DNA of 32,963 nucleotides from an uncultured Candidatus Sumerlaeota bacterium (GTDB lineage: Bacteria > CAYMEV01). The DNA lies in NCBI GenBank assembly GCA_964389675.1, contig CAYMEV010000031.1, positions 1 through 32,963 on the forward strand. Direction: 5' to 3'. Under the pieces are notes generated by a model. The model saw nothing but the letters and a program-made list of their open reading frames with translations. It did no database searches and was not told the DNA's origin. The position numbers and the translations under genes are program-made. The first letter of the stretch is position 1. Every line of letters begins with the position of its first letter. This document shows positions 4,831 to 32,963 of the stretch, piece by piece.

Positions 4831-4962
4831 AAACAGATATGAAAATAAAACCATAATTGCAAAATACGCTATCATCAGATACAATCCAGCTATAGTTTTT
4901 ACTGATCAGAATTTATTTTGCGGTTATTCGAATTCCTGATTCTTTTGAGTGGAGGCAATATT

Positions 4963-6813
4963 GTGAAAAAAAGAATATTAATTTCCATATGCCTGCTTTT
5001 TACAGCAGTCTGCCTTGCGGATAATCTGGAAATAGATACTGAAGAGCTTTCTATATTCTTCGATGGTGTAATAAATGAGCAGCTTATAGCCTATGAGATT
5101 CCAGGTGCAGTAGTATCAGTTGTTAAAGATGGGAAACCTGTCTTTCAAAAAGGGTACGGTTTTGCTGACTTAGAAGGTAATATACCTGCTTCAGCGGATA
5201 AAACACTTTTTAGAATAGGGTCTATTTCAAAGCTTTTTGTATGGACAGCAGTTATGCAGATGTCAGAGAATGGAATGCTTGATATCCACAAAGATATCAA
5301 CCTCTACCTTGATGAATTCAAGATCCCTCAGACATTCAAGGAGCCCATTACCATGGCGCACCTTATGACGCATACTCCTGGCTTTGAAGAGCAGGAGCTC
5401 GGTGTATTCGTGAAAAACAAAAAGGATATCGCACCACTTGGAAAATACCTTGCTCACTATATTCCTGTAAGGGTAAGGCCGCCAGGATTACTTTCCTCAT
5501 ACTCCAATTATGGTACAGCGCTTTCAGCATATATTGTGGAAAAGCTCTCAGGAATGGCTTTTTATGAATATGCAGAAGCAAATATATTCCAGCCCCTCTC
5601 AATGGCCAGCAGCACATATCTTCAGCCTCCTTCAGAGGTCTGTGGAAAAATGGCGAAGGGTTATATTATAGCAGATGGATATGCAGTGCCAAATGACTTT
5701 GAATGGATACAGGCTTATCCAGCCGGGTCTGTGAGTTCAACTGCATCTGATATGGCAAATTTCATGATAGCCTGTTTGAATTTCGGCAGGTTTGGAGAAG
5801 AGAGGATAATGGAAGAAGCCACAGCAATGGAGATGCAGAGCAGGCATTTTGCCCATGATGAAGAGATAAATGGCTGGACATGGGGCTTTATGGAATTAAA
5901 AACCGGGAACCACAGGATCTTATGGCATGGTGGTGATACATACCTTTTTCATTCAGCAGTGTATCTCATACAGGACTATAATACAGGTATTTTTGTATCA
6001 TATAATTGCCCTGCAGGGGCAAAAGCAAGAATAGACCTGATAAAGGCGTTTATGGCAAGGTATCTGCCCCAGCCGGAAGCTGCAGCACCTGATAAGATGG
6101 ATGGCCCCGGGCATGCAGGGGAGTTATCAGGTTCATACCTTGATATACGTACAAATTACTCCACACCTGAGAAGCTTATGACAATTTTAAACCCGGTTGC
6201 TGTGGAGATGATTGATGAACATACCCTGGTTTTCAGTAATAACAGATGGATTGAGATAAAACCGCTGGTATTCAGGAATTATACCAGCGAAGAGCTTATG
6301 GTCTTTAAGAAGAACATGGATGGGAAGTACTGCATGTTCAGGGGGAATAATCCTACCACGGCATATACAAAGATACCATTTATCTACTCTCCGCGGGTGC
6401 AGAAGTCTATTATTGCAGCATGTTTTATCATTTTTATTTCTGTGGTATTGCTCTGGCCGCTGAGCCTGGCTTTCTGCAATGCAGAAAAAGCACAAATGAA
6501 GTCATTCGGGAGGCTGACAGGGATAATATTATGGATCATCTGCCTGTTAAATTCATTTTTTATTTACAGAATGTACAGGCTTATCTCTGACGGGGGCTTC
6601 AGTTTCGGCCTCCCTCATGGAATAAACACTCTTCTGATTTTACCTTATATTAATGTTCCTTTGACCTTTATACTGATTATTCTATTGGTTCTGGCATGGT
6701 ATAAATCACTCTGGAATCCTTTTTTAAGGATATGCTTCAGTACAGCTGCATTCTTCTGCATGGTATCAGTATGGCTGATGAGTTATTGGAATCTGCTGTT
6801 TTTCCGCTTTTGA
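4963..6813 (+). CDS. Beta-lactamase-family (class C / D-peptidase-like) serine hydrolase with C-terminal transmembrane helices
   Basis: FRIGSISK (SxxK), LMTHTPG, YSNYG (YxN) and WHGG motifs, plus about 4 C-terminal hydrophobic helices. Start moved from TTG 4918 to GTG 4963, which follows GGAGG (4951-4955) and begins a signal peptide. Confidence 0.88.
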   Translation: MKKRILISICLLFTAVCLADNLEIDTEELSIFFDGVINEQLIAYEIPGAVVSVVKDGKPVFQKGYGFADLEGNIPASADKTLFRIGSISKLFVWTAVMQMSENGMLDIHKDINLYLDEFKIPQTFKEPITMAHLMTHTPGFEEQELGVFVKNKKDIAPLGKYLAHYIPVRVRPPGLLSSYSNYGTALSAYIVEKLSGMAFYEYAEANIFQPLSMASSTYLQPPSEVCGKMAKGYIIADGYAVPNDFEWIQAYPAGSVSSTASDMANFMIACLNFGRFGEERIMEEATAMEMQSRHFAHDEEINGWTWGFMELKTGNHRILWHGGDTYLFHSAVYLIQDYNTGIFVSYNCPAGAKARIDLIKAFMARYLPQPEAAAPDKMDGPGHAGELSGSYLDIRTNYSTPEKLMTILNPVAVEMIDEHTLVFSNNRWIEIKPLVFRNYTSEELMVFKKNMDGKYCMFRGNNPTTAYTKIPFIYSPRVQKSIIAACFIIFISVVLLWPLSLAFCNAEKAQMKSFGRLTGIILWIICLLNSFFIYRMYRLISDGGFSFGLPHGINTLLILPYINVPLTFILIILLVLAWYKSLWNPFLRICFSTAAFFCMVSVWLMSYWNLLFFRF

Positions 6814-6896
6814 GCCTGACAGATTTTTTTTGAAATAATTATTTAAGAGCAGCCTTCGGCTATATCTTTTTATTGCCTGAGATGCTGCAATAATTT

Positions 6897-7439
6897 TCAG
6901 CAGTACTTGTCAGGCCTTAATTTGAATAAATGGGGTGAGATAAATCTCAGATAGTGGTTGACCTTGTCAATATCCTGCTGGTTAAAATCTGGGCCTGCCT
7001 TCTCAAAGGATACAGCGCGCCTGTTTATCCACATTGCCCCAAATGGTACATCATTAAATACCAGCGGCACAGCGATGAATTTTTGGATCGGCAGTATTTC
7101 CTTTTCAGCATCCTTGAGGCGCTCATACATTGCCAGGCGTTCAGTCTCCCTGGTATCATTGTTCAGGATAGGTTTATTCTGTTCTATTACCCTTTTGGTT
7201 ATCCTGCTTTTATGTATGGGGAAGGAATTGCCCTTTCCGAACATCCTTATAGGAAGGACAAAATGGACCTGGTCATCCCTGTCCTTCAGCATTATTGATA
7301 TTTCATATTCCTTACAGCCTACAGCGCTTACCAGAAAGTCCCTTACGATAAAAAGGACCTTTTTAAATTTCTCGTTTGGTTCGTCCAATGCCTGGTCATT
7401 GATCTCCTGCAGTCGTTTTACAAGCAATTTTAATGACAT
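6897..7439 (-). CDS. Stand-alone GAF domain protein
   Basis: GAF hallmarks ITKRVIEQNKPILNND, FIAVPLVFNDVPFGAMWINR and PDFNQQD. GAAGGGG RBS upstream. Confidence 0.75.
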   Translation of the reverse strand: MSLKLLVKRLQEINDQALDEPNEKFKKVLFIVRDFLVSAVGCKEYEISIMLKDRDDQVHFVLPIRMFGKGNSFPIHKSRITKRVIEQNKPILNNDTRETERLAMYERLKDAEKEILPIQKFIAVPLVFNDVPFGAMWINRRAVSFEKAGPDFNQQDIDKVNHYLRFISPHLFKLRPDKYC

Positions 7440-7575
7440 TAAATCTACCCCTTCATATTATTCTTAATATTATTTTAGTTGCTGTTTTTAATTTTGCAAC
7501 AAATTTACTTAATTACAAAATTATTCTTTTAGGGATTTAATTGCCCGATATATTTCCAGCAGCTTTAAGGATTGC

Positions 7576-10500
7576 TCATACAGGCATACAATAACAGAAT
7601 TTAATTCTCTGCTTATGCAAATAGCACGGATATCTTTCTGATAATTCCTTATAAAGGGTATAGCATTTAATCCTAAACCTCCAGGCTGAGGTAAGGCGGT
7701 AAAGGTAATAATTGCAGGCTGCTTCAGTTTCCTTGTTATCAGTATATACGGACAGAGAAATAAGGTTTCTTACAGCATAATCTTTATCTCTTTTAGTATT
7801 GGATATATAAAATACCATTTTCACCCTTTCAGAAAGATCATTCTTTCTCTTTAAATCAATCATCGAGATTAATTTTTCTGAAATTCTAAGTGCCTGATTC
7901 CATCTGCCGGTGTTAAAAAGTATTTCGCTAATTGCACTGCCGGTTTTTGCAGTAAGATACTCAGCTTTTTCAAGATCCCTGCATTTCACAAAGGCCAGAT
8001 CGAGTAATTCCAGAGCTTTGGTCCAGGATCCCTGGCCTGCCATTATCATGCCTTTTGTATACAAAATGGATATATAATCCCTGGTATTTTGATTTTTTTC
8101 CGCGATTTCCATGGCTTTGTCTGCATATTCAAGAGCCGGGCGAAATCTGCCCAGATCATGATTGTTTTCAGCCAACAGACTGTAAGCCTTATAGTCCATT
8201 GCATGATAGCTGCACTCTTCTGCTGCAGCAAGCGTTGAACTTAGCTGTTTTATGGCCAGTGTGAATTTGCCCATCATCTGATAGATTAGGCTTACAGAAA
8301 TTTCTGCATTTATCAGGTCAATGTAGTTGGATTTCTGCCTCCCCAGATTAATGCCGGCCTTAAAATAGTATATTGCCTGCTGAAGTTGGCCCATGTCTTT
8401 ATAACATCCTGCAATTTTGAAATAAAGTTCTGTAAGGTAATAGAAATCATTGCTTTTTCCTATCTCATCAAACTGATCAAAATATAAGGACAGGGCCCTC
8501 CTGTTTTGCCCTTGATACTGGTAGATCGATGCAATCTTTATTACTATCCCTATCAAATGATTCCTTATATTAAGCTTTTTGAATATCTGGTATGCCTTCT
8601 TAAGACAGGCCAAAGCCTGGTCCATTTCGCTCAGGTTAACGAGAGGAATGCTTAAATTAATATTTGCTAATCCTGCAAAATATATATCATCAGTTTCAAG
8701 GGCTATTCCAAGCTGTTTCTTGAAATGATCCACAGCACTGCTGTATTGCCCTTCGGTTGTGTACATTCTTCCTGCTATCTGCATGGCATGCCCGAGGGAC
8801 CTTTTGTCCCCGAGCTTCTTTGCGAGGCCTATCTTTTTTCTGAGAAATTCATGTGCGCTGTTAGAATTGCCTTCATTATGACAGGCCTGAGCCATATTTC
8901 CGTATGCAACGGAAAGAATGGCATTCAGCCTGTGCTTTTCTGCCAGGCTTATTGTCTTTTTTGCATAGGAAAGAAATTTCTTGTTGTTATTCTGGTTACC
9001 ATAGATGCTGGTGATATTCTGCAGGGCTGATGCATAAAGCACTGGATTTTTATCTTTATCCACATGCCTGATGATGTGATTGAGCAGTTTTAATGCTTCC
9101 TTATCCTTATGCTGAAATATGTAGGACAGGGATAATGCTCTTCTATTCTCCATAAGGTATAATGGTTCATCATATTTTTTGAAGATTTCCTGTGCTTCAT
9201 TCAGCATTTGCTCTCCTGACTTAAATTCTGAGCTTTTTATCAGCAGAATTGCAAATTCATTCTTTATAACCGCCTCTTCAAACGGGTTACCAATCTTTTT
9301 TGCAAGTTTTAATGCAGATTGAAAGTATTTATTGGATTCTGCTGATCTTCCTGTTACAAAATATATTTTTGCCAGCTGGAAACAGGTTTCTTTTAGCAAA
9401 TACACATCTTCTGTAAGATTCAGAATACGTGAAAAATGATTTATGGAGTCTGCATTTTTATAATTTTCCTTTTCATAATTTGCTGCTTTTAAGAGATAGT
9501 TGATCGCTTTTTCTGTGTTTTCTGCTTTCTCAAAATGATCTGCCAGCTTTCCATAATGCTCTGAAAGATCGCTTTTGTACAGCTCCTCTGTCACTGTTCC
9601 AGCAAGGTTATGCAGGTTCCTGAGCGTTTCCTTAAGCTGCATCCCGTAGACTGAATCACGGATCAGTGCATGTTTGAAAATATAGCTTAAATCTGTTAAT
9701 TCTTCCCATATCTGTTCATCATATCCCATCTTAAGGTATTCATGAAATTCTTCATCTTTCCTTGTAATATCAGTAAGAAAAAGCAGCCTCCTTAGAATAT
9801 TTAATGCAAATTCCCTTCCAATTACGGAAGCTGTTTTTATAATATTTTTCAGCCTGATGGATAATCTGTCAATCCTGGCTATTATAATCTGGCTTATGCT
9901 GGCAGGAATATCTGTTGACCGGCTTCTTAAACAAAGCTTCTCATCTATTATATTCTCTTCCTTCATATAGAGTGTTATCTGGTCTGCAAAGAAGGGATTG
10001 CCCCCGCTCTTCCTGAATATAAAATCCTCTGTATCCTCAGGGATTTCGGATTTATCTGCTTTAAGCCTGTCAGCAATAAGATCGGAAAAAGCCTCACGGC
10101 TGAAAGGGTTTATTTCCACCCTTTTAGCCACTTCTGAAGTATCAGCAAAAATCGTATAACTGGTCCCATCATCATTTGGCCTGCATGCTGCAAGCAGTAT
10201 GAAGGGGTAATCTTCGACATTAATAATTAATGCTTTTAGCAGTTCTTTGCTGTCGGAATCTATCCAGTGTACATCATCCAGTATTATTACAAGCGGTTTT
10301 CTCATGCAATGAGCCTTGATGAATGTTTTAACCGATTGTATAGTGTTTTCATACCGGCCTTTTGGGTCAAGTTGCGAAAAAAGCGAGCCTTTACGCTCCA
10401 GTCCGACAAAAGCCCCTATTATGCTCTCACCGCGGATTAATTCATCCTTTAGCTCTTCATCCTCTGCTTTATTAATAATGCTGCTGTAAATGTTTTTAAA

Positions 10501-12006
10501 TCTTGCATAATTCCTGTTATATTTATCGGATTCAGCCTGTTCAAAATAGTCCTTAAGAAAAGACACAAATGGATTAAAAGCACTCCTGAGAATCTGGTCG
10601 CAATGAAGGTAGAAAAAACTGCATTTTTCAGTACCGATGCTTTCTATGAAATTGGATATAAAACGTGATTTTCCCACGCCTGCTTCGCCTTCTATATAAA
10701 CAATACCCCCGAATTTATTTTTGAAAATGGGGGATACAAGGTTTTCCAGATCATTTTTTTCCCTGGCCCTGCGAATATATCTGCCTGCATAGCTGACATG
10801 TTTTTTTACCCGGGTTTTTGATTCGAGCGACCAGAGGGAGATCGCGTCTGAGAAACCTTTCAGCCTTGCATTGCCTGCAGGGCTAAAGCTGTATAAAGGT
10901 GAAGCTGATTCAGTTATGCCTGGACTGCATAATATCTGGTCCCATTCAGCTTTCATCATCAATCTTGCCGCAAGATTAACAGCATTCCCCATAACTCCAT
11001 AGCATGCACGAATGCTGCTGCCCTTAATTCCTGCATATACCACTCCGCTGTTAATGCCGATCCTGCACTGGGAAGAGATTTTACCCTTCAGGGCCAATGC
11101 AAAATCAAGAGCTCTTGTCATAAGGTGCTCATATGTCTGAGGAACTCCAAATATGATAAGAGTATTGGTTCCTTTATCACCGCTGTCAATGCCTTCAAAA
11201 TAACCCTTGTAAATATCTGCATGTTCAATCACGATTTTTATGATCGATTCCAGTTCAGAAGATGATCCGGGGTCCTGATATGAAATGAATACAGCTGTGA
11301 TTTTCCGGAATTCGCCCTCCGGAGGCGTCTCCAGTATCTTTTCGGGTATAAAGGCCTTTAATATTCCATAATCAATATCAGCAGTCTTTTTCAGCCTTTT
11401 ATTAAATTGCTTTCTGCATGAAACAACCCTGAAGAAGCTTTCATCTAACCTTCTGAATACTATTTCCCTTTTATCTGCCTGTGACATTAAACCACTGTCA
11501 AAAACTATATCCATTTTATTGCAGCGATGTTCAGAATAAGAGCATTTGTCAACAGCTTCTCCCCTGAAATAATATGCTTTATGGCTGTCAGTGCCTGTAA
11601 TGCCCCATTCTACCGCACCATATGAAAGTCCGATCTTTACGGATATATCAAATATCCCGAAACGGGATTCCTGTCTGCCGTGCTTCCTAAATATATCTCT
11701 TATACATATTGCACAGTCAATGATCTCTGAAGCGTTTGCAATATCCCTGAATACTGCTGTAAAAGCATCTCCTGCAAATGCAGTAATAAATCCCTCTGAA
11801 ATATGGACTGCTTCTATTACAGGCCTGAAAATATTATTAATGATTACCGCAAGTACTTCAGCCCCCTCTTTACCTTCCTGCATCAGGCGCTCTGTCATGG
11901 ATGTAAATCCGGATATATCAATAAACATTGTATATGCCTTGAATTGACCATTAAAACTGTTGTTGGAAAATTGTTCTGCAATAAAATGAGGTATGAAATT
12001 ATGCAT
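7576..12006 (-). CDS. Soluble-adenylyl-cyclase-like class III cyclase (two domains) - STAND ATPase - TPR protein (SWACOS family)
   Basis: C1: FIDISGFT and FAGDA (both metal-binding Asp). C2: DKG and VNLAARLM. Walker A GEAGVGKS, Walker B IILDDVHWID, GGNPFF, IIARIDRL and YIFKHALIRD. Twelve 40-aa TPR-like units. Confidence 0.92.
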   Translation of the reverse strand: MHNFIPHFIAEQFSNNSFNGQFKAYTMFIDISGFTSMTERLMQEGKEGAEVLAVIINNIFRPVIEAVHISEGFITAFAGDAFTAVFRDIANASEIIDCAICIRDIFRKHGRQESRFGIFDISVKIGLSYGAVEWGITGTDSHKAYYFRGEAVDKCSYSEHRCNKMDIVFDSGLMSQADKREIVFRRLDESFFRVVSCRKQFNKRLKKTADIDYGILKAFIPEKILETPPEGEFRKITAVFISYQDPGSSSELESIIKIVIEHADIYKGYFEGIDSGDKGTNTLIIFGVPQTYEHLMTRALDFALALKGKISSQCRIGINSGVVYAGIKGSSIRACYGVMGNAVNLAARLMMKAEWDQILCSPGITESASPLYSFSPAGNARLKGFSDAISLWSLESKTRVKKHVSYAGRYIRRAREKNDLENLVSPIFKNKFGGIVYIEGEAGVGKSRFISNFIESIGTEKCSFFYLHCDQILRSAFNPFVSFLKDYFEQAESDKYNRNYARFKNIYSSIINKAEDEELKDELIRGESIIGAFVGLERKGSLFSQLDPKGRYENTIQSVKTFIKAHCMRKPLVIILDDVHWIDSDSKELLKALIINVEDYPFILLAACRPNDDGTSYTIFADTSEVAKRVEINPFSREAFSDLIADRLKADKSEIPEDTEDFIFRKSGGNPFFADQITLYMKEENIIDEKLCLRSRSTDIPASISQIIIARIDRLSIRLKNIIKTASVIGREFALNILRRLLFLTDITRKDEEFHEYLKMGYDEQIWEELTDLSYIFKHALIRDSVYGMQLKETLRNLHNLAGTVTEELYKSDLSEHYGKLADHFEKAENTEKAINYLLKAANYEKENYKNADSINHFSRILNLTEDVYLLKETCFQLAKIYFVTGRSAESNKYFQSALKLAKKIGNPFEEAVIKNEFAILLIKSSEFKSGEQMLNEAQEIFKKYDEPLYLMENRRALSLSYIFQHKDKEALKLLNHIIRHVDKDKNPVLYASALQNITSIYGNQNNNKKFLSYAKKTISLAEKHRLNAILSVAYGNMAQACHNEGNSNSAHEFLRKKIGLAKKLGDKRSLGHAMQIAGRMYTTEGQYSSAVDHFKKQLGIALETDDIYFAGLANINLSIPLVNLSEMDQALACLKKAYQIFKKLNIRNHLIGIVIKIASIYQYQGQNRRALSLYFDQFDEIGKSNDFYYLTELYFKIAGCYKDMGQLQQAIYYFKAGINLGRQKSNYIDLINAEISVSLIYQMMGKFTLAIKQLSSTLAAAEECSYHAMDYKAYSLLAENNHDLGRFRPALEYADKAMEIAEKNQNTRDYISILYTKGMIMAGQGSWTKALELLDLAFVKCRDLEKAEYLTAKTGSAISEILFNTGRWNQALRISEKLISMIDLKRKNDLSERVKMVFYISNTKRDKDYAVRNLISLSVYTDNKETEAACNYYLYRLTSAWRFRIKCYTLYKELSERYPCYLHKQRIKFCYCMPV
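7957..9396 (-). repeat. 12 x 120-nt (40-aa) TPR-like units, highly diverged
   Basis: Protein from LKETCFQL to EKAEY spans exactly 1440 nt and parses into twelve 40-aa helical-repeat units. Confidence 0.7.
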
Positions 12007-12185
12007 GAGGCTAATCAGTCAATTTATCTATATTAAATATATTCATAATCGTTTCAGGATAATAATGAATAAGCTATTTGGGTTAATCAACATGACCTTT
12101 ATTATTATAATTCCTTTTTTGCATTATTTTAAGATAAAAAAATAAGCTGTAATCCTGTCATTTTTTAGCAAACAGGCCTGAATGA

Positions 12186-12214
12186 TTGAAAAAAATTGAA
12201 GATTGTGATAATAT
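12186..12214 (+). promoter_or_regulatory. Putative sigma70 promoter for cNMP-PilT in the divergent intergenic region
   Basis: TTGAAA (12186-12191), 17-nt spacer, TG-extended TAATAT (12209-12214). The region is AT-rich, so chance matches are possible. Confidence 0.35.
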
Positions 12215-12304
12215 TTCTTCAGCAGAAATATTTTGATTGCAAAATATGATAATAATAGTTAATTTTAATAAAAAAATTCTATTTTCAATTTAGGAGGATA
12301 TTCA

Positions 12305-14095
12305 ATGAAATTAATCCCATTGGAAGGCAGTTTGTATGATAAGGCTTTAAATACCCTAAAAGATGCTGATCTGTTCAGCAGGCTTAAACCCGACCATATT
12401 AAACAGGTTATGAAATATGCCGGGCTTATCAGCTATGAAGACCAGGATATTATTATCCAGACTGGTGATGCCGCTGACTGCTTCTATATTTTAATTGAAG
12501 GCCAGGCCAGGGTTTTTATTGAGCTGGACAAAAAGGGTCTGAAGATGGAGGTAGGCAGCCATAAAAAGGCTGATATTATTGGAGAAATTGGATTGCTCCT
12601 GAACAAGAAACGCTCAGCCACAGTAATTGCATGCCAGGGTGCATTAGCTCTCCGCTTTGATAAAAAGGTATTGCCTCATGCCATTGAAAAGATTCCTGGT
12701 TTTCAGTCGGTTCTGAACGAGGTGCTGGCCTACAGGCTGTACAATCTGTCAGGCAGGTTTCCCAGAAATACTGTTGAGACTGAACCTGCAAGCCCGGACA
12801 AAGAGGCATTGTCCTTCCTCCCCATAAACTTCATCATAAGGCACCGGGCCCTGCCTTTGAAATCAGAGGGGGATACAATGACCATCGGATTCGTTGATTA
12901 TCCAAATCCTGCAGTTATCAGCAGTATTGAAAAATTCATTCCAGGTATGGAGATAAAGAGTGTCAAAGTGCCGATTGATTTCTTCGATGAGCAGTTAAAG
13001 GGTCTTCTGGCAAAGGATAAAAAGGAAAAAAAGGCAAAAGGCAGGACATATCAGTTAAACGAGCTTCTTGAGAGAATGGTTGAAGAAGGAGCATCAGACC
13101 TCCATCTATCTGCTGATCAAGAACCATGCTGGAGAATAGATGGCAGGATAGTACAGATCAAAGACAGCAGGCCATTTTCTGAAAAGGAAGCCTGGAACCT
13201 GTTTGAACCGCTTCTTAACAGCCGTCAGAAATCGGATTTTGAGAGAGATTACAGCCTCGATTTTGCCCATTCAATTAATAATGCCCGCTTCAGGATAAAT
13301 CTTTATCATGACTATAATGGAGTTAATGCAGCGATAAGAATGATACCTTCAAATGTATTGTCCTTTGAACAGCTCGGATTGCCGAATATGCTTACAAAGT
13401 TATGTGATAACCCGAATGGCATAGTCCTTGTTACCGGCCCCACAGGATGCGGCAAAACAACCACACTGGCATGCCTTATTAACCATATTAACGAAAACTA
13501 TGATAATCACATAATAACCCTTGAGGACCCTATTGAATATCTCCATAAAAGCAAGAAATGCCTTATCAATCAGCGGGAATTAAATACACATATCAGGTCT
13601 TTCAAGGATGGATTAAGATTTGCATTACGTGAAGACCCGGATGTTATCCTTGTAGGTGAAATGCGTGACTATGAAACTATATCACTCGCACTTGAGGCAA
13701 GTAATACCGGCCATCTGGTATTTGCTACACTTCATACTCCAACAGCAGTATCTACAATTGAACGAATTATCCAGGTTTTTCCTAGCGAACAGCAGAATAA
13801 GATACGCTCACTCCTTGCAGATAATATAAGGGGTATATTATGTCAGGCAATGTGCAGGAAGATAAGAGGCGGAAGAATACCTGCACTGGAAGTACTGATA
13901 GTTAACCCTGCTATTGCAAATATGATCAGAGAAAGCAAGCTGACACAGATCCCTTCAGCTATGCAGACTTCCAAAGCTCAGGGAAATGTGCTTCTGAATG
14001 AATATCTGGCAAATCTGGTAAGCAAGCATAAGATTACACCTGATGAAGCCTTAAAACATGCAATAGATAAGCAGGATCTAAAGAAAAGGATTTAA
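12305..14095 (+). CDS. pilT: PilT/PilU-family type IV pilus ATPase with N-terminal cNMP-binding domain and a T2SSE_N-like domain
   Basis: cNMP domain: GDAADCFYILIEG and GEIGLL...RSAT. PilB-N-like segment FLPINFIIRHRALPL...IGFVD. ATPase: GASDLHL, GPTGCGKTTT, ITLEDPIEY, ALREDPDVILVGEMRD, TGHLVFATLHT and AIANMIRE (PilT AIRNLIRE-like). AGGAGG RBS. Confidence 0.9.
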   Translation: MKLIPLEGSLYDKALNTLKDADLFSRLKPDHIKQVMKYAGLISYEDQDIIIQTGDAADCFYILIEGQARVFIELDKKGLKMEVGSHKKADIIGEIGLLLNKKRSATVIACQGALALRFDKKVLPHAIEKIPGFQSVLNEVLAYRLYNLSGRFPRNTVETEPASPDKEALSFLPINFIIRHRALPLKSEGDTMTIGFVDYPNPAVISSIEKFIPGMEIKSVKVPIDFFDEQLKGLLAKDKKEKKAKGRTYQLNELLERMVEEGASDLHLSADQEPCWRIDGRIVQIKDSRPFSEKEAWNLFEPLLNSRQKSDFERDYSLDFAHSINNARFRINLYHDYNGVNAAIRMIPSNVLSFEQLGLPNMLTKLCDNPNGIVLVTGPTGCGKTTTLACLINHINENYDNHIITLEDPIEYLHKSKKCLINQRELNTHIRSFKDGLRFALREDPDVILVGEMRDYETISLALEASNTGHLVFATLHTPTAVSTIERIIQVFPSEQQNKIRSLLADNIRGILCQAMCRKIRGGRIPALEVLIVNPAIANMIRESKLTQIPSAMQTSKAQGNVLLNEYLANLVSKHKITPDEALKHAIDKQDLKKRI

Positions 14096-30606: not shown

Positions 30607-32963
30607 TCAGGAAATATTTTCCAGTTCGTCAATTATAATCTTATACTGGAATTTAGGTATTTTAGAATAAAGAGCCTTGTATAATCCGGCTGCAGATTTC
30701 CTGCATTCATCCATGCCGTCTATCTTATACAGGGTATAATAGACCTGCGCCCTCTCAGAATCGTCAATTTTGTCCGAAAGCATCATTAAAAGCGATTTTA
30801 CAGCTGTTGTTCTGTCATTATATGACATAACCATATGATTCAGAAGTTCGGATCTGAAAATGAATTCACGATTTTTGAGGGTATGGGCTGTCTTCGTAGC
30901 CTCCCTGCTGTATTTCAGAGCTTCATCTATATTATTGGAAAGCAGGAGTCCTCTGGTTTTATCAATAAGGGATTCAAAGTATAATGTATTCTGTATCTTC
31001 ATCCCTTTGAGTATCTTTATGGCATTTTCAAGCTGTTTCAATGCCATATCAGGCCTGCCAAGGTCAAGATAGAGTTTTCCTGCATATGCTGATGCCATCG
31101 CTTCTTCTTCTTTGTTCCCTGTTTCTTTTGCAATATTATGAAGCAGGTTGTAGCATTCCAGAGCCTTGTCAAATTCACCGAGAGAATAATAAACCAGTCC
31201 GATATTAGCTTCAGCGATACCTGTCCCCTTTGTGTAGCCGGTCTCCAGGCATATTTTCCTGTCGATCTCATAGCATTCCAGGGCCTTTGCATACTGGCCT
31301 GTGGAATTATAGACAACGCCCATATTACATGATGTTCTTCCTATTTGAATCTTATCCCCGATCTCCTCGAATATTTTCATTGCCTGCTCATAATGGTCTA
31401 ATGCTTCCTGATACTTATTTAAGGATACATAGATATTTCCTATATTTCCTGAGACTTTTCCAAGCCCCCTCTTGTCTTCAATTTCCTTGCTTATCTCTTT
31501 CTGAAGTTCAAGATATTCAAGAGACCTATCATATTGCCCGAGTGCATAATATACCCCTGCGATATTTCCAAGAACACTTCCAATGTCCTTTTTTTCACCA
31601 TAGGATTCAAATAAATCCCTGGAAATCTCATAATACTCAAGTGCTTTGGCATATTCGCCAATATCAAAATAGGTAAGGCCTATATAACCTGCTGAAGAAG
31701 CCATTATCCTGTTATCAGCCGTGCTTCCAGCGAGTCTCATTGATTCTTCAAGGTAGGAGAGTGCGTCTGCATAGCATCCCCTTGTCCTCTTCCTGTTCCC
31801 TAAAAGCATGTATGATTGTGTCAGGAGCTGTTTATTGCCAGCCTCAGCTGACCTTTCCGCGCATTCTCTGTAAATTTGCTCTGATTTTTGCCATTCTCCC
31901 AGTATGTCAAGTATCTTCCCTGTTTTTATTCTGATTTCTATGGCCCTTTGGGGGGATTGCACTGAGCTTAAAGCAGTTTTGTAATATTCTATTGCCTTAT
32001 TGTTGAAATAATTATTGCCTGCAATATCAGCGCATTTTTCATAATAATATGAGGCTTTTTCATTATTGCCGCCGGACAGAAAATGGTAGGCTACCTCTTC
32101 AATATATTCATCATCACTTGTTTCCAGTGCTTCTGCGAGGAATAAGCTCATTTCCCTTTTATTTTTTATACTTTTTCTTATCTGCTCCTTCATGATATTG
32201 CTGGTGAAAGAGTAGTAAACTGTATTCTTTTTCTCTATTGACTGAAGGATCTCATGATTTTCCAGCTCCAGGAGCACTTTTGCCGAATCTGAGAAAGCAG
32301 TTTTTTCGATTATATATCTTAATGATGCTATATCTACCTCAGTTCTGAGCAGGGACAGCAATCCAAGGATTTTTTTCTTGTTTTCATCTGACAAGATCCT
32401 TTCAAGCCTCTTTTTAATGATCTCATTAATATTAAATGGGACATCAACTTCATCAATCGATTTTAGCAGTTTCCAGTATGTTTTGTCTTTAATTATTATT
32501 CCCTTGTCAATAAGAGACCTTAAAAGCTCTTCCAGAAAAAGGGGATTGCCTCCATACTTCTTTCTGATATCCGGTACAGCTTCCTTAATGGAGATATCAA
32601 TGAAATTTTTTCCAAATATTTTTTCAATATATTCATATACACCACTTTCATCAAGGGGATACAATGAATATCTTAGCGCATTCCCATTGTCCATTATTTT
32701 GCTGAGGTCTCTGCCATTAAGCTTATTCTCATTTATTACAGCACAAATGCATATTTTAGTTTTTGGATCTGTATTGAGCCTGTGCAGGAGGTTTCCTAAT
32801 ATCATTTCAGAACCTTCGTCAATCCAGTGCAGATCATTGAAGTATAAAATTATGGGAATGTCCCTGCTGAACTGAAGAAGGTAATCTGTAATATTACCGA
32901 TTATCAATTTCTGAATTATTTCAGGTTTATCAGATATTGCATGCTTCTGGTATTTTGAAAGAC
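30607..32963 (-). CDS. 5'-partial STAND ATPase - TPR protein, close paralog of the kinase-STAND at 24852..28643
   Basis: The frame stays open from 32907 to the window edge (...KHAISDKPEIIQKLIIGNITDY). Shares LYFNDL.WIDEGS, LYPLD..GV.EYIE, GGNP.FLEEL and SDENK.KIL..LSL.R with the kinase copy. Eight 40-aa TPRs. The N-terminal effector is outside the window. Confidence 0.88.
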   Translation of the reverse strand, partial: LSKYQKHAISDKPEIIQKLIIGNITDYLLQFSRDIPIILYFNDLHWIDEGSEMILGNLLHRLNTDPKTKICICAVINENKLNGRDLSKIMDNGNALRYSLYPLDESGVYEYIEKIFGKNFIDISIKEAVPDIRKKYGGNPLFLEELLRSLIDKGIIIKDKTYWKLLKSIDEVDVPFNINEIIKKRLERILSDENKKKILGLLSLLRTEVDIASLRYIIEKTAFSDSAKVLLELENHEILQSIEKKNTVYYSFTSNIMKEQIRKSIKNKREMSLFLAEALETSDDEYIEEVAYHFLSGGNNEKASYYYEKCADIAGNNYFNNKAIEYYKTALSSVQSPQRAIEIRIKTGKILDILGEWQKSEQIYRECAERSAEAGNKQLLTQSYMLLGNRKRTRGCYADALSYLEESMRLAGSTADNRIMASSAGYIGLTYFDIGEYAKALEYYEISRDLFESYGEKKDIGSVLGNIAGVYYALGQYDRSLEYLELQKEISKEIEDKRGLGKVSGNIGNIYVSLNKYQEALDHYEQAMKIFEEIGDKIQIGRTSCNMGVVYNSTGQYAKALECYEIDRKICLETGYTKGTGIAEANIGLVYYSLGEFDKALECYNLLHNIAKETGNKEEEAMASAYAGKLYLDLGRPDMALKQLENAIKILKGMKIQNTLYFESLIDKTRGLLLSNNIDEALKYSREATKTAHTLKNREFIFRSELLNHMVMSYNDRTTAVKSLLMMLSDKIDDSERAQVYYTLYKIDGMDECRKSAAGLYKALYSKIPKFQYKIIIDELENIS
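30985..31944 (-). repeat. 8 x 120-nt (40-aa) TPR units
   Basis: AIEIRIK to IQNT spans exactly 960 nt. TAGCATTCCAG occurs at 31151 and 31271. Confidence 0.88.

What the first reader, a model, noticed from the sequence alone, without database searches (positions are those of the whole stretch)
6897..14095. Candidate local cyclic-nucleotide circuit: NLR-like STAND cyclase + GAF protein divergent from a cNMP-binding PilT
Seen: a cyclase-STAND-TPR gene and a PilT ATPase with an N-terminal cNMP-binding domain are head-to-head across a 298-bp intergenic region, and a stand-alone GAF gene follows the cyclase on the same strand. Established: STAND-TPR proteins are ligand-triggered switches, class III cyclases make cNMPs, CNB and some GAF domains bind cNMPs, PilT retracts type IV pili, and pili are common phage receptors. 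Inference: the TPR sensor activates the cyclase and the cNMP acts directly on the retraction motor, with GAF as a second receptor or buffer. Possible outputs are motility, predation or phage avoidance. I know of no characterised system with this wiring. However, STAND cyclases are plainly expanded in this genome, so the adjacency could be chance.
Basis: partly seen in the sequence, partly recalled or inferred. Interest (0 to 1): 0.8.

Follow-up and report, generated by a model that had tools for sequence, protein, structure and literature searches.

The report
Cyclic-nucleotide-gated pilus motor beside sensor cyclase
A rare pilus-retraction motor carrying a cyclic-nucleotide sensor sits head-to-head with one of 26 copies of a sensor cyclase that resembles human soluble adenylyl cyclase; related motors elsewhere also sit near cyclases, but this exact pairing is missing from the sister species.

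Summary
Three genes are present.
- 6897-7439(-): a 180-aa GAF-fold protein.
- 7576-12006(-): a 1476-aa protein with two cyclase domains, a STAND ATPase and TPR repeats.
- 12305-14095(+), 298 bp away and divergent: a 596-aa protein with a cNMP-binding (CNB) domain, a GspE/PilB-type N1 domain and a PilT ATPase.

New findings:
- The cyclase core resembles human soluble adenylyl cyclase ADCY10, with both catalytic domains aligned (E 4e-32). It is one of 26 paralogues. It alone has Gly where the substrate-specifying Lys/Arg sits.
- CNB-PilT is a rare family. Its cNMP phosphate-binding cassette is conserved across 29 representatives.
- Class III cyclase genes lie next to or within 4 kb of CNB-PilT genes in 3 of the 5 other loci examined. 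One is a Nitrospinia cluster that also holds a GAF-fused PilB and a lone CNB protein.
- In this genome, 2 of 5 CNB genes lie within 2.2 kb of a cyclase paralogue (random placement P about 0.007).

Against: in the sister species the PilT orthologue (74% identical) has an RNA-binding-protein gene upstream. No protein above 42% identity to this cyclase turned up in the one word-limited database search. The GAF ligand is unknown.

Verdict: cNMP gating of the motor is likely. A dedicated local circuit with this cyclase is plausible but unproven (about 0.45).

The parts
6897..7439 (-). P0001, a 180-aa stand-alone GAF-fold protein; ligand unknown
   Evidence: GAF_2 scores 27.9 bits, below the 28.6 cut-off. 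The AF2 model has pLDDT 83.9. Foldseek matches GAF domains at E 6.8e-8. Orthologues of 65% and 62% identity exist. A 38% paralogue lies at G000:C13.
7440..7575 (.). 136-bp spacer between the cyclase stop and the GAF start
   Evidence: One promoter-like match on the minus strand (7499-7472) and no terminator-like site in the spacer. Co-transcription is undecided.
7576..12006 (-). P0002, a 1476-aa soluble-adenylyl-cyclase-like protein: tandem cyclase domains, STAND NTPase and TPR array
   Evidence: Pfam and NCBIfam; alignment to ADCY10; paralogue analysis.
11461..11961 (-). Cyclase domain 1 (residues 16-182), C1-like; carries both metal-binding Asp (D30, D80)
   Evidence: It aligns to ADCY10 residues 33-202. 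D30 and D80 are present in 26 of 26 paralogues.
10825..11316 (-). Cyclase domain 2 (residues 231-394), C2-like; keeps the Asn and Arg of the transition-state pair but has Gly272 at the substrate Lys position and Gly337 at the Thr405 position
   Evidence: It aligns to ADCY10 residues 287-462. At the Lys position the paralogues have R19, K3, H2, Q1 and G1, the Gly being this gene only.
10207..10773 (-). STAND NTPase (AAA_16, residues 412-600), with Walker A at 440 and Walker B at 572
   Evidence: AAA_16 scores 67.6 bits against a 32.6 cut-off.
8002..9636 (-). TPR sensor array (about residues 791-1335)
   Evidence: TPR_12 scores 109 bits in 4 stretches; TPR_MalT scores 65 bits. PDB matches are to TPR proteins only.
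12007..12304 (.). 298-bp AT-rich divergent intergenic region with an AGGAGG ribosome-binding site before the PilT start
   Evidence: Sequence read. Only weak promoter-like and inverted-repeat matches were found.
12305..14095 (+). P0003, a 596-aa CNB-N1-PilT fusion ATPase
12428..12679 (+). Cyclic-nucleotide-binding domain (residues 42-125) with the phosphate-binding cassette G93-E94...R103-S104-A105
   Evidence: cNMP_binding scores 55.9 bits. The AF2 model of residues 1-200 matches PKA, PKG and CRP CNB domains at E about 1e-10. G93 is invariant, and E94, R103 and A105 are at least 90% conserved in 29 representatives.
12773..12979 (+). GspE/PilB-type N1 domain (Pfam MshEN/T2SSE_N, residues 157-225)
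   Evidence: 30.7 bits against a 23.1 cut-off. The recalled c-di-GMP-binding motif of MshE is not found. Model confidence here is low, pLDDT 47-70.
13055..14077 (+). PilT/PilU-type hexameric ATPase core (residues 251-591): Walker A at 378, Asp box at 406, Walker B at 444, His box at 468
   Evidence: TIGR01420 scores 428 bits against a 319 cut-off.

Best explanation
P0003 is an accessory, PilT-type type IV pilus ATPase. Its activity, or its docking to the pilus platform, is gated directly by a 3',5'-cyclic nucleotide bound to its N-terminal CNB domain.

The divergent neighbour P0002 is a bacterial relative of soluble adenylyl cyclase. It is a pseudo-heterodimeric class III cyclase held in check by a STAND NTPase and a TPR sensor. 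When the TPR array meets its unknown ligand, the STAND module should oligomerise and the cyclase should make a cyclic nucleotide.

The most likely reading is that this product reaches the neighbouring motor and changes pilus retraction. That would make the pair a short sensor-to-motor pathway with no transcription step. The GAF protein is a small-ligand-binding protein of unknown ligand, and its membership in the circuit is the weakest link.

Shown here: the domains, the conserved cNMP cassette, the catalytic metal and transition-state residues, and the recurrence of cyclase genes near CNB-PilT genes.

Inferred: ligand binding, its effect on the ATPase, that P0002 rather than another of the roughly 31 cyclases is the source, and which nucleotide is made.
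For: 1. The CNB domain is canonical. Pfam scores 55.9 bits and the fold matches PKA, PKG and CRP CNB domains. In 29 family representatives that are 24-46% identical, G93 is invariant and E94, G96, R103 and A105 are at least 90% conserved. G93, E94 and R103 are invariant in 12 of 12 closer members.

2. The architecture is a real and rare family.
- 12 of the 14 other hits in a search of 5.8 billion proteins carry CNB plus T2SSE.
- 29 of the best 150 representatives are single-stretch matches of 560-670 aa.
- 10 of 10 of those sampled carry CNB plus T2SSE.
- 0 of 399 other genomes in a broad sample have it.

3. Cyclase linkage recurs in other loci.
- In L043 (a Nitrospinia MAG), the CNB-PilT gene is head-to-head, 309 bp apart, with an operon of GAF-GAF-N1-PilB (941 aa), a lone CNB protein (168 aa) and a class III cyclase (332 aa).
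- In L045 and L046, a 411-aa cyclase gene converges on CNB-PilT with a 6-bp gap.
- The window's cyclase is of an unrelated type, so linkage to a cyclase arose at least twice.
- G041 has 15 cyclase-domain matches in 5.6 Mb, so a cyclase within 5 kb is expected at about 3% of loci.

4. Within this genome, 2 of 5 CNB genes lie within 2.2 kb of a cyclase paralogue. Random placement gives P = 0.007 for at least 2 of 5 at 2.2 kb and 0.027 at 5 kb.

5. P0002 keeps the residues needed for catalysis (both metal Asp, plus Asn and Arg) and intact Walker A and B motifs.

6. The organism has a canonical pilB-pilT-pilC cluster on contig C12, so there are pili to regulate.
Against: 1. The pairing is not conserved in the only other genome of the phylum.
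- In G001 the PilT orthologue (74% identical) has an RRM RNA-binding-protein gene upstream, and the contig ends 196 bp beyond that gene.
- Downstream lies an S15 peptidase. Neither P0002 nor P0001 gives a tblastn hit on that contig.

2. P0002 has no orthologue in what was searched. The best hit in G001 is 39% identical, the same level as the in-genome paralogues. The best hit among the candidates scored from 5.8 billion proteins is 41-42% identical. That search takes its words from the first 500 residues and lists 120 of 615 hits. PilT and GAF do have orthologues, at 74% and 65%.

3. With 26 paralogues, some adjacency is expected by chance: P is 0.019 for this tight a spacing among 5 CNB genes. 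The 2.2-kb threshold was chosen after seeing the data.

4. P0002 alone among the 26 paralogues has Gly at the substrate-specifying Lys/Arg position. Its product, or even its activity, is therefore uncertain.

5. The L047/L050 clade has no cyclase in about 7 kb upstream or 9 kb downstream.

6. The L043 and L045 cyclases are 31% identical to each other, and their PilT N-termini look roughly 60% identical by eye (not computed). Those loci therefore count as one deep lineage, not several independent cases.

7. The neighbours of the 26 paralogues are heterogeneous, and no GAF partner recurs.
Confidence: 0.45

Rival explanations
1. The adjacency is chance. P0003 is cNMP-gated, but it reads a cell-wide cNMP pool fed by any of about 31 cyclases. 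P0002 is simply the nearest member of a large, fast-turning-over family, and the GAF gene is unrelated.
For: - The genome holds 26 paralogues plus about 5 other cyclase genes in 3.57 Mb.
- The neighbours of the paralogues are heterogeneous.
- The pairing is absent in G001.
- No orthologue of P0002 above 42% identity was found.
- G001 paralogues match G000 paralogues at only 49-57% identity, against 72-74% for neighbouring genes. The family therefore turns over quickly.
Against: - 2 of 5 CNB genes lie within 2.2 kb of a paralogue (P about 0.007).
- Cyclase genes lie next to or near CNB-PilT in L043, L045 and L046, and they are of a different cyclase type.
Confidence: 0.4
2. The locus is an anti-phage system built on Pycsar or Avs logic. 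The TPR-STAND module senses a phage protein, the cyclase makes a signal nucleotide, and the CNB effector (here PilT) retracts pili so that phage cannot adsorb.
For: - Domain 1 of P0002 matches Pycsar cyclase models (PDLC00734, 40.2 bits).
- The CNB domain of P0003 matches the CNB part of Pycsar TIR effectors (37.9 bits).
- STAND-TPR proteins include phage sensors (abstracts and listing; passages).
- The unusual Gly/Gly specificity pair leaves the product open.
Against: - The PADLOC scores are low and are explained by generic class III cyclase and CNB homology. ADCY10 is a far better match (115 bits).
- The effector is an ATPase, not a killing domain.
- The genes are divergent, not in one operon.
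- The flanking genes are housekeeping types (beta-lactamase-like, C69 peptidase, DUF3160), not defence genes.
- 26 paralogues per genome is unlike known Pycsar systems.
- 'cyclase' does not occur in the main text of the STAND phage-sensor preprint searched.
Confidence: 0.05
3. P0002 is a catalytically altered or inactive paralogue, a pseudo-cyclase or scaffold, and does not signal through a cNMP at all. Any link to PilT would then be through shared transcription control of the divergent promoter region.
For: - Gly272 replaces the Lys/Arg found in the other 25 paralogues, and Gly337 sits at the second specificity position.
- No close orthologue was found.
Against: - Both metal Asp, the Asn and Arg pair, and Walker A and B are intact, and the reading frame is full length.
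- A Glu-Gly specificity pair is, from recall, compatible with guanylyl cyclase activity in the cyanobacterial enzyme Cya2.
Confidence: 0.1

Closest known systems
Soluble adenylyl cyclase (ADCY10/sAC) and its bacterial relatives
   Same: - Two class III catalytic domains lie in tandem at the N-terminus, and both align to human ADCY10 C1 and C2 (E 4e-32).
- C1 supplies the two metal Asp and C2 supplies the Asn and Arg.
- A long C-terminal regulatory region follows. That mammalian full-length sAC carries a P-loop/TPR-like region is recalled, not tested. The passages read from PMC11006738 give only the 187-kDa full-length form, the C1 and C2 domains, an autoinhibitory segment, and bicarbonate activation of a Chloroflexus enzyme.
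   Different: - The bicarbonate-binding residues are absent. K95 corresponds to Ala76 and R176 to Ser156, and neither is Lys or Arg in any of the 26 paralogues.
- The substrate Lys334 is Arg in 19 paralogues and Gly in P0002.
- There are 26 copies per genome.
c-di-GMP-gated pilus ATPases (MshE, PilB with the MshEN domain)
   Same: A nucleotide second messenger binds an N-terminal extension of a type IV pilus or T2SS ATPase and acts after translation. P0003 also has a Pfam MshEN/T2SSE_N domain.
   Different: - The sensor here is a CNB domain for 3',5'-cNMPs.
- The ATPase is of the PilT (retraction) type, not an extension ATPase.
- The recalled c-di-GMP motif of MshE is not present.
Pseudomonas aeruginosa Pil-Chp / CyaB / Vfr circuit
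   Same: It links type IV pili, PilT and cAMP (title and start of the abstract of PMC10187167, in the listing).
   Different: There, cAMP acts through the transcription factor Vfr, and pili act upstream of the cyclase. Here the nucleotide sensor is fused to the motor itself.
Pycsar (PycC cyclase plus CNB-fused effector)
   Same: A class III-type cyclase gene lies next to a gene whose product carries a CNB domain fused to an output domain. PADLOC gives weak matches.
   Different: - The output is a PilT ATPase, not a TIR or membrane-disrupting domain.
- The genes are divergent.
- The cyclase is sAC-like, with STAND and TPR.
- There is no defence-gene neighbourhood.
STAND-TPR switches (MalT, AfsR, Avs)
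   Same: AAA_16 with Walker A and B is followed by a MalT-like TPR array. The expected mechanism is ligand-induced oligomerisation (abstracts listed).
   Different: The effector is a tandem cyclase. The ligand is unknown.

Membership tests
PilT/PilU type IVa pilus ATPase (TIGR01420) | Score above the curated cut-off over the full model | tested here: met
   428.1 bits against a 319.1 cut-off, model positions 2-343 of 343.
PilT/PilU type IVa pilus ATPase (TIGR01420) | Walker A, Asp box, Walker B and His box of the secretion-ATPase superfamily | tested here: met
   The motifs are at residues 378, 406, 444 and 468. The PilT-specific AIRNLIRE motif (recalled) reads AIANMIRE at residue 536.
PilT/PilU type IVa pilus ATPase (TIGR01420) | Drives pilus retraction | not testable with these tools
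   This is one of 6 genes above the cut-off in the genome. The canonical pilB-pilT-pilC cluster lies on contig C12.
Cyclic-nucleotide-binding domain (PF00027) | Pfam score above the gathering threshold, and the beta-barrel fold | tested here: met
   55.9 bits against 27.5. The model matches PKA, PKG and CRP CNB domains, with TM up to 0.83 normalised by target length.
Cyclic-nucleotide-binding domain (PF00027) | Phosphate-binding cassette: Gly-Glu ... Arg-Ser/Thr-Ala | tested here: met
   G93-E94 and R103-S104-A105 are present. G93 is invariant, and E94, R103 and A105 are at least 90% conserved in 29 representatives.
Cyclic-nucleotide-binding domain (PF00027) | Binds cAMP or cGMP | not testable with these tools
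   Needs ITC or DSF.
Class III cyclase, soluble-adenylyl-cyclase type | Tandem C1 and C2 domains, both aligning to ADCY10 | tested here: met
   E 4.2e-32. Domain 1 covers residues 16-182 and domain 2 covers 231-394.
Class III cyclase, soluble-adenylyl-cyclase type | Two metal-binding Asp in C1, and the Asn and Arg transition-state pair in C2 | tested here: met
   D30 and D80 are present in 26 of 26 paralogues. Asn and Arg are seen in the alignment block around residues 342-348.
Class III cyclase, soluble-adenylyl-cyclase type | Substrate-specifying Lys (ADCY10 K334) for ATP | tested here: not met
   Gly272 in P0002. The other 25 paralogues have Arg (19), Lys (3), His (2) or Gln (1).
Class III cyclase, soluble-adenylyl-cyclase type | Bicarbonate site (K95, R176) | tested here: not met
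   Ala76 and Ser156. No paralogue has Lys or Arg at either position.
STAND NTPase | AAA_16/NOD module with Walker A and B, followed by a repeat sensor | tested here: met
   AAA_16 scores 67.6 bits. Walker A is at residue 440 and Walker B at 572. TPR_MalT scores 65 bits.
GAF domain | Pfam score above the gathering threshold | tested here: not met
   GAF_2 scores 27.9 bits against 28.6.
GAF domain | GAF fold | tested here: met
   The model has pLDDT 83.9. There are 159 PDB matches at E no more than 0.001, led by GAF domains.
GAF domain | cNMP-binding subtype | tested here: inconclusive
   cAMP- and cGMP-bound GAFs are among the top hits, but at 14-18% identity and mixed with non-cNMP GAFs.
Pycsar | PycC cyclase and a CNB effector with a TIR or membrane killing domain, in one operon | tested here: not met
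   PycC models score no more than 40.2 bits. The effector is PilT and the genes are divergent.
MshEN c-di-GMP receptor | 24-residue c-di-GMP-binding motif (pattern recalled from memory) | tested here: not met
   Neither a strict nor a loose pattern match was found in P0003. The Pfam domain itself is present.

The most novel reading that the evidence does not exclude
CNB-N1-PilT proteins are a previously uncharacterised class of type IV pilus motors. A 3',5'-cyclic nucleotide switches them directly, and they tend to be encoded beside their own cyclase.

In the Nitrospinia cluster both motors would be nucleotide-gated: a GAF-GAF-PilB for extension and a CNB-PilT for retraction, next to a cyclase and a lone CNB protein. 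In the window, the input comes from an sAC-like STAND-TPR sensor whose unusual Glu-Gly/Gly specificity residues could mean a product other than cAMP.
Probability: 0.45. Interest if true: 0.7.

Novelty: new variant of a known kind. Interest (0 to 1): 0.55.

Why it matters
Second-messenger control of type IV pili is known in two forms: c-di-GMP acting directly on extension ATPases, and cAMP acting through transcription factors. A motor that carries its own cAMP/cGMP sensor would add a fast, transcription-free route from a cyclic mononucleotide to pilus retraction. That would bear on motility, surface sensing, DNA uptake and adsorption of pilus-dependent phage.

The locus also shows that the domain plan of human soluble adenylyl cyclase (two catalytic domains plus a STAND and repeat regulator) is hugely expanded, to 26 copies, in a deep bacterial lineage known from only two genomes. 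That offers many natural variants for studying how the regulatory region controls the catalytic core.

The claim is testable with ordinary biochemistry on three soluble proteins.

Tried and rejected
No earlier notes were seen.
- No RNA holder is listed for the stretch.
- Contigs of runs X2, X3 and X4 are 158-1010 nt long, too short to bridge the gene junctions. Parts without cover say nothing. A loose end in X3 at 12272 lies in AT-rich spacer and was taken as noise.
- Literature. Three searches for a CNB-fused PilT or cAMP-binding PilT found no such report. They were 'PilT' + 'cyclic nucleotide-binding domain' + 'retraction ATPase' (0 papers), 'PilT' + 'cNMP-binding' (2 papers, unrelated passages), and 'type IV pil' + 'cAMP' + 'PilT' + 'binds cAMP' (5 papers hold the terms, 4 listed, all Pseudomonas and acting through Vfr by their titles and abstracts). 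Searches for bacterial sAC with STAND and TPR gave nothing specific. Supplements were not requested.
- The 298-bp spacer gave only weak promoter-like matches and imperfect AT-rich inverted repeats, with no full CRP-type palindrome seen.
- There are no tRNA genes in the window, L031 or L044.
- Widening the sample gave little. In 120 Nitrospinota genomes only G041 had a full match. G135 holds a 25%-identical CNB-ATPase on a 3.3-kb contig with no usable context. In a broad sample, 0 of 399 other genomes had a match.
- The 42,563-nt contig that probably carries both the PilT orthologue P0005 and the GAF orthologue P0018 could not be reached. The listing of cluster members gave no accession. The look-up of encoding contigs is stated to be closed and was not called.
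- The C-terminal 1076 residues of P0002 match only TPR proteins in the PDB.
- L042 (Actinomycetota) and L049, L051, L052 and L053 match only the CNB part, so they were not counted as fusions.


Full report
**Observation**

P0001 (6897-7439, minus strand, 180 aa) scores 27.9 bits on Pfam GAF_2, just under the 28.6 cut-off. An AlphaFold2 model built on five sequences (mean pLDDT 83.9) is clearly a GAF fold. There are 159 PDB matches at E no more than 0.001. They are led by PtsP and chemoreceptor GAFs, and the top ten include cAMP-bound Lcd1 and cGMP-bound PDE6 GAFs, all at 14-18% identity.

P0002 (7576-12006, minus strand, 1476 aa) has two cyclase-homology stretches, an AAA_16 STAND module and MalT-like TPR repeats.

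P0003 (12305-14095, plus strand, 596 aa) has a cNMP-binding domain (55.9 bits), a Pfam MshEN/T2SSE_N domain (30.7 bits) and a PilT/PilU core (TIGR01420, 428 bits against a cut-off of 319).

The head-to-head spacer is 298 bp. Logan contigs of run X1 cover both junctions without differences, but X1 may be the source sample. In the independent run X4, one 204-nt contig reaches only from the cyclase start into the spacer.

**What the cyclase is**

The first 400 residues find human soluble adenylyl cyclase ADCY10 as the best solved relative. Both catalytic domains align in order (E 4.2e-32).

I mapped the printed alignment and compared 26 in-genome paralogues.
- The two metal-binding Asp of C1 (D30, D80) are present in 26 of 26.
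- The Asn and Arg of C2 are present.
- The bicarbonate-binding Lys95 and Arg176 of ADCY10 are not conserved in any paralogue.
- The substrate-specifying Lys334 position is Arg in 19, Lys in 3, His in 2 and Gln in 1. It is Gly only in P0002, where a Glu precedes it.
- The second specificity position (Thr405) is Gly in P0002.

The enzyme therefore looks able to catalyse, but its nucleotide preference cannot be read from sequence. The STAND module has Walker A and B motifs. The C-terminal part matches only TPR proteins in the PDB.

Relatives with the same plan are common in uncultured lineages labelled Cloacimonadota, Delongbacteria and Marinimicrobia. There are 615 hits at E no more than 1e-100 among 7999 scored candidates. 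None of the best 120 listed is more than 42% identical to P0002.

**What the motor is**

P0003 belongs to a rare fusion family.
- A word-based search of 5.8 billion proteins with residues 1-250 gave 14 other proteins. Twelve carry CNB plus T2SSE, and two are partial.
- A profile search of 1.84 billion representatives with the N-terminal 200 residues gave 191 hits at E no more than 1e-30. Among the best 150, 29 (P0003 included) are single full-length matches in proteins of 560-670 aa.
- Ten of ten of these sampled carry CNB plus T2SSE, and eight of the ten also carry MshEN.
- Across those 29, which are 24-46% identical to P0003, the phosphate-binding cassette is the best-conserved part of the N-terminus. 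G93 is invariant, and E94, G96, R103 and A105 are at least 90% conserved.
- The modelled N-terminus matches PKA, PKG and CRP cNMP-binding domains.
- The fusion was found in 0 of 399 other genomes of a broad sample. In 120 Nitrospinota genomes, one held a full match and one held a distant 25%-identical relative.

The genome has a canonical pilB-pilT-pilC cluster elsewhere, and six genes score above the PilT cut-off. P0003 is therefore an accessory motor.

**Is the adjacency meaningful? Evidence for**

- In L043, from a Nitrospinia MAG, the CNB-PilT gene is head-to-head (309 bp) with an operon. The operon encodes a GAF-GAF-N1-PilB extension ATPase (941 aa), a lone cNMP-binding protein (168 aa) and a class III cyclase (332 aa). 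A response-regulator-GAF-kinase gene lies beyond.
- In L045 and L046, a 411-aa membrane-anchored cyclase gene converges on CNB-PilT with a 6-bp gap. The two cyclases are 82% identical to each other.
- A home-made cyclase profile recovered the held-out L043 cyclase at E 1.9e-21. It found no further cyclase in the 13 loci scanned.

Within this genome there are five cNMP-binding genes: a histidine kinase, a CRP-like regulator, a double-CNB protein, P0003 and a 531-aa protein. The 531-aa protein lies in an operon divergent from another cyclase paralogue, 2191 bp away. Random placement gives at least 2 of 5 within 2.2 kb with P = 0.007, and with P = 0.027 at 5 kb. The threshold was chosen after seeing the data.

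**Evidence against**

The phylum holds only this genome and G001 among the genomes available.
- In G001 the PilT orthologue is 74% identical. Its upstream neighbour is a 96-aa RRM RNA-binding-protein gene, and its downstream neighbour is an S15 peptidase. The 6.4-kb contig ends 196 bp beyond the RRM gene.
- In G000, the orthologue of that peptidase lies beside a different cyclase paralogue on contig C23.
- P0002 has no orthologue in G001. Its best hit there is 39% identical, like the in-genome paralogues at 36-46%.
- The family as a whole turns over quickly. Three G001 paralogues match their best G000 counterparts at 49-57% identity.
- The L047/L050 clade has no cyclase in the flanks available. 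Its cassette reads R-G-H-T rather than R-S/T-A-T.
- The L043 and L045 cyclases are homologous (31% identical), and the PilT N-termini of those loci look roughly 60% identical by eye (not computed). Together they count as one deep lineage. Linkage to a cyclase is therefore seen in two lineages with two unrelated cyclase types, not in many.

**The GAF gene**

It has orthologues of 65% (P0018) and 62% (P0019) identity. P0018 and the PilT orthologue P0005 both list 42,563 nt as the length of their longest contig. They probably share a contig in the sister species, but I could not read it.

No GAF-like partner recurs next to the other 25 paralogues. The only in-genome paralogue of P0001 sits in an unrelated operon. 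The GAF protein may be tied to PilT, to the cyclase or to neither.

**Defence reading**

PADLOC gives only weak matches to Pycsar cyclases (40.2 bits) and to the CNB part of Pycsar TIR effectors (37.9 bits). Generic domain homology explains these. The flanking genes are not defence genes.

**Verdict**

The anatomy is confirmed and better defined: an sAC-like STAND-TPR cyclase, a GAF-fold protein, and a member of a rare, conserved CNB-N1-PilT family. Direct cNMP gating of this motor is the best-supported mechanism. That P0002 is its dedicated source is plausible (confidence about 0.45), but it rests on neighbourhood statistics from few loci and is contradicted by the sister species. No report of such a motor turned up in three searches of the held library.

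Noticed in passing
L043:2944-11860 (Nitrospinia MAG, G041 contig C105): This is a compact cluster: a response-regulator-GAF-Ser/Thr kinase, a class III cyclase (332 aa), a lone CNB protein (168 aa), a GAF-GAF-N1-PilB (941 aa), and a divergent CNB-N1-PilT (619 aa). Both pilus motors appear to carry nucleotide-type sensor domains.
   Followed up: partly
G000:C1:212301-222600 (L059): This is a second CNB-cyclase pairing in the same genome. A 531-aa CNB protein sits in an operon with a ParA/MinD-like ATPase, an ECF-S/HAMP membrane protein, DUF362 and a ferredoxin-like protein. The operon is divergent (261 bp) from another sAC-like STAND-TPR cyclase.
   Followed up: partly
whole genome G000 and G001: The phylum-level group holds only these two genomes among those available. 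G000 carries 26 sAC-like tandem-cyclase STAND-TPR genes in 3.57 Mb. Most have Arg in place of the substrate Lys, and none keeps the bicarbonate-site residues.
   Followed up: partly
window:20290-28643 and 30607-32907: The window also holds a second sAC-like paralogue (1495 aa), a Ser/Thr-kinase-STAND-TPR protein (1263 aa) directly upstream of it on the same strand, and a TPR protein. The kinase domain matches PADLOC kinase models (mad6, PD-T4-6). That probably reflects generic kinase homology.
   Followed up: no
G000:C1:70653-74119 (L060): A CNB-fused histidine kinase (394 aa) is divergent from a CheA-like kinase gene. This is another possible point where cNMP signalling meets motility control.
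   Followed up: no
L045:1-1700 and 4873-7004: The two ends of this metagenome contig are inverted copies of each other (a response-regulator gene plus the start of the cyclase gene, 100% identical). This looks like an assembly artefact. Only one copy was counted.
   Followed up: partly
G000:C23:12348-22030 versus G001:C178: The S15 peptidase and membrane-transporter genes that flank PilT in G001 flank a different cyclase paralogue in G000. A rearrangement has therefore swapped PilT and a cyclase gene at this position between the two species.
   Followed up: partly
window:6800-14200, runs X2-X4: Near-identical fragments (99% or more) of this stretch occur in sediment and soil metagenomes of three other studies. 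The species therefore recurs, mostly in marine sediment.
   Followed up: no
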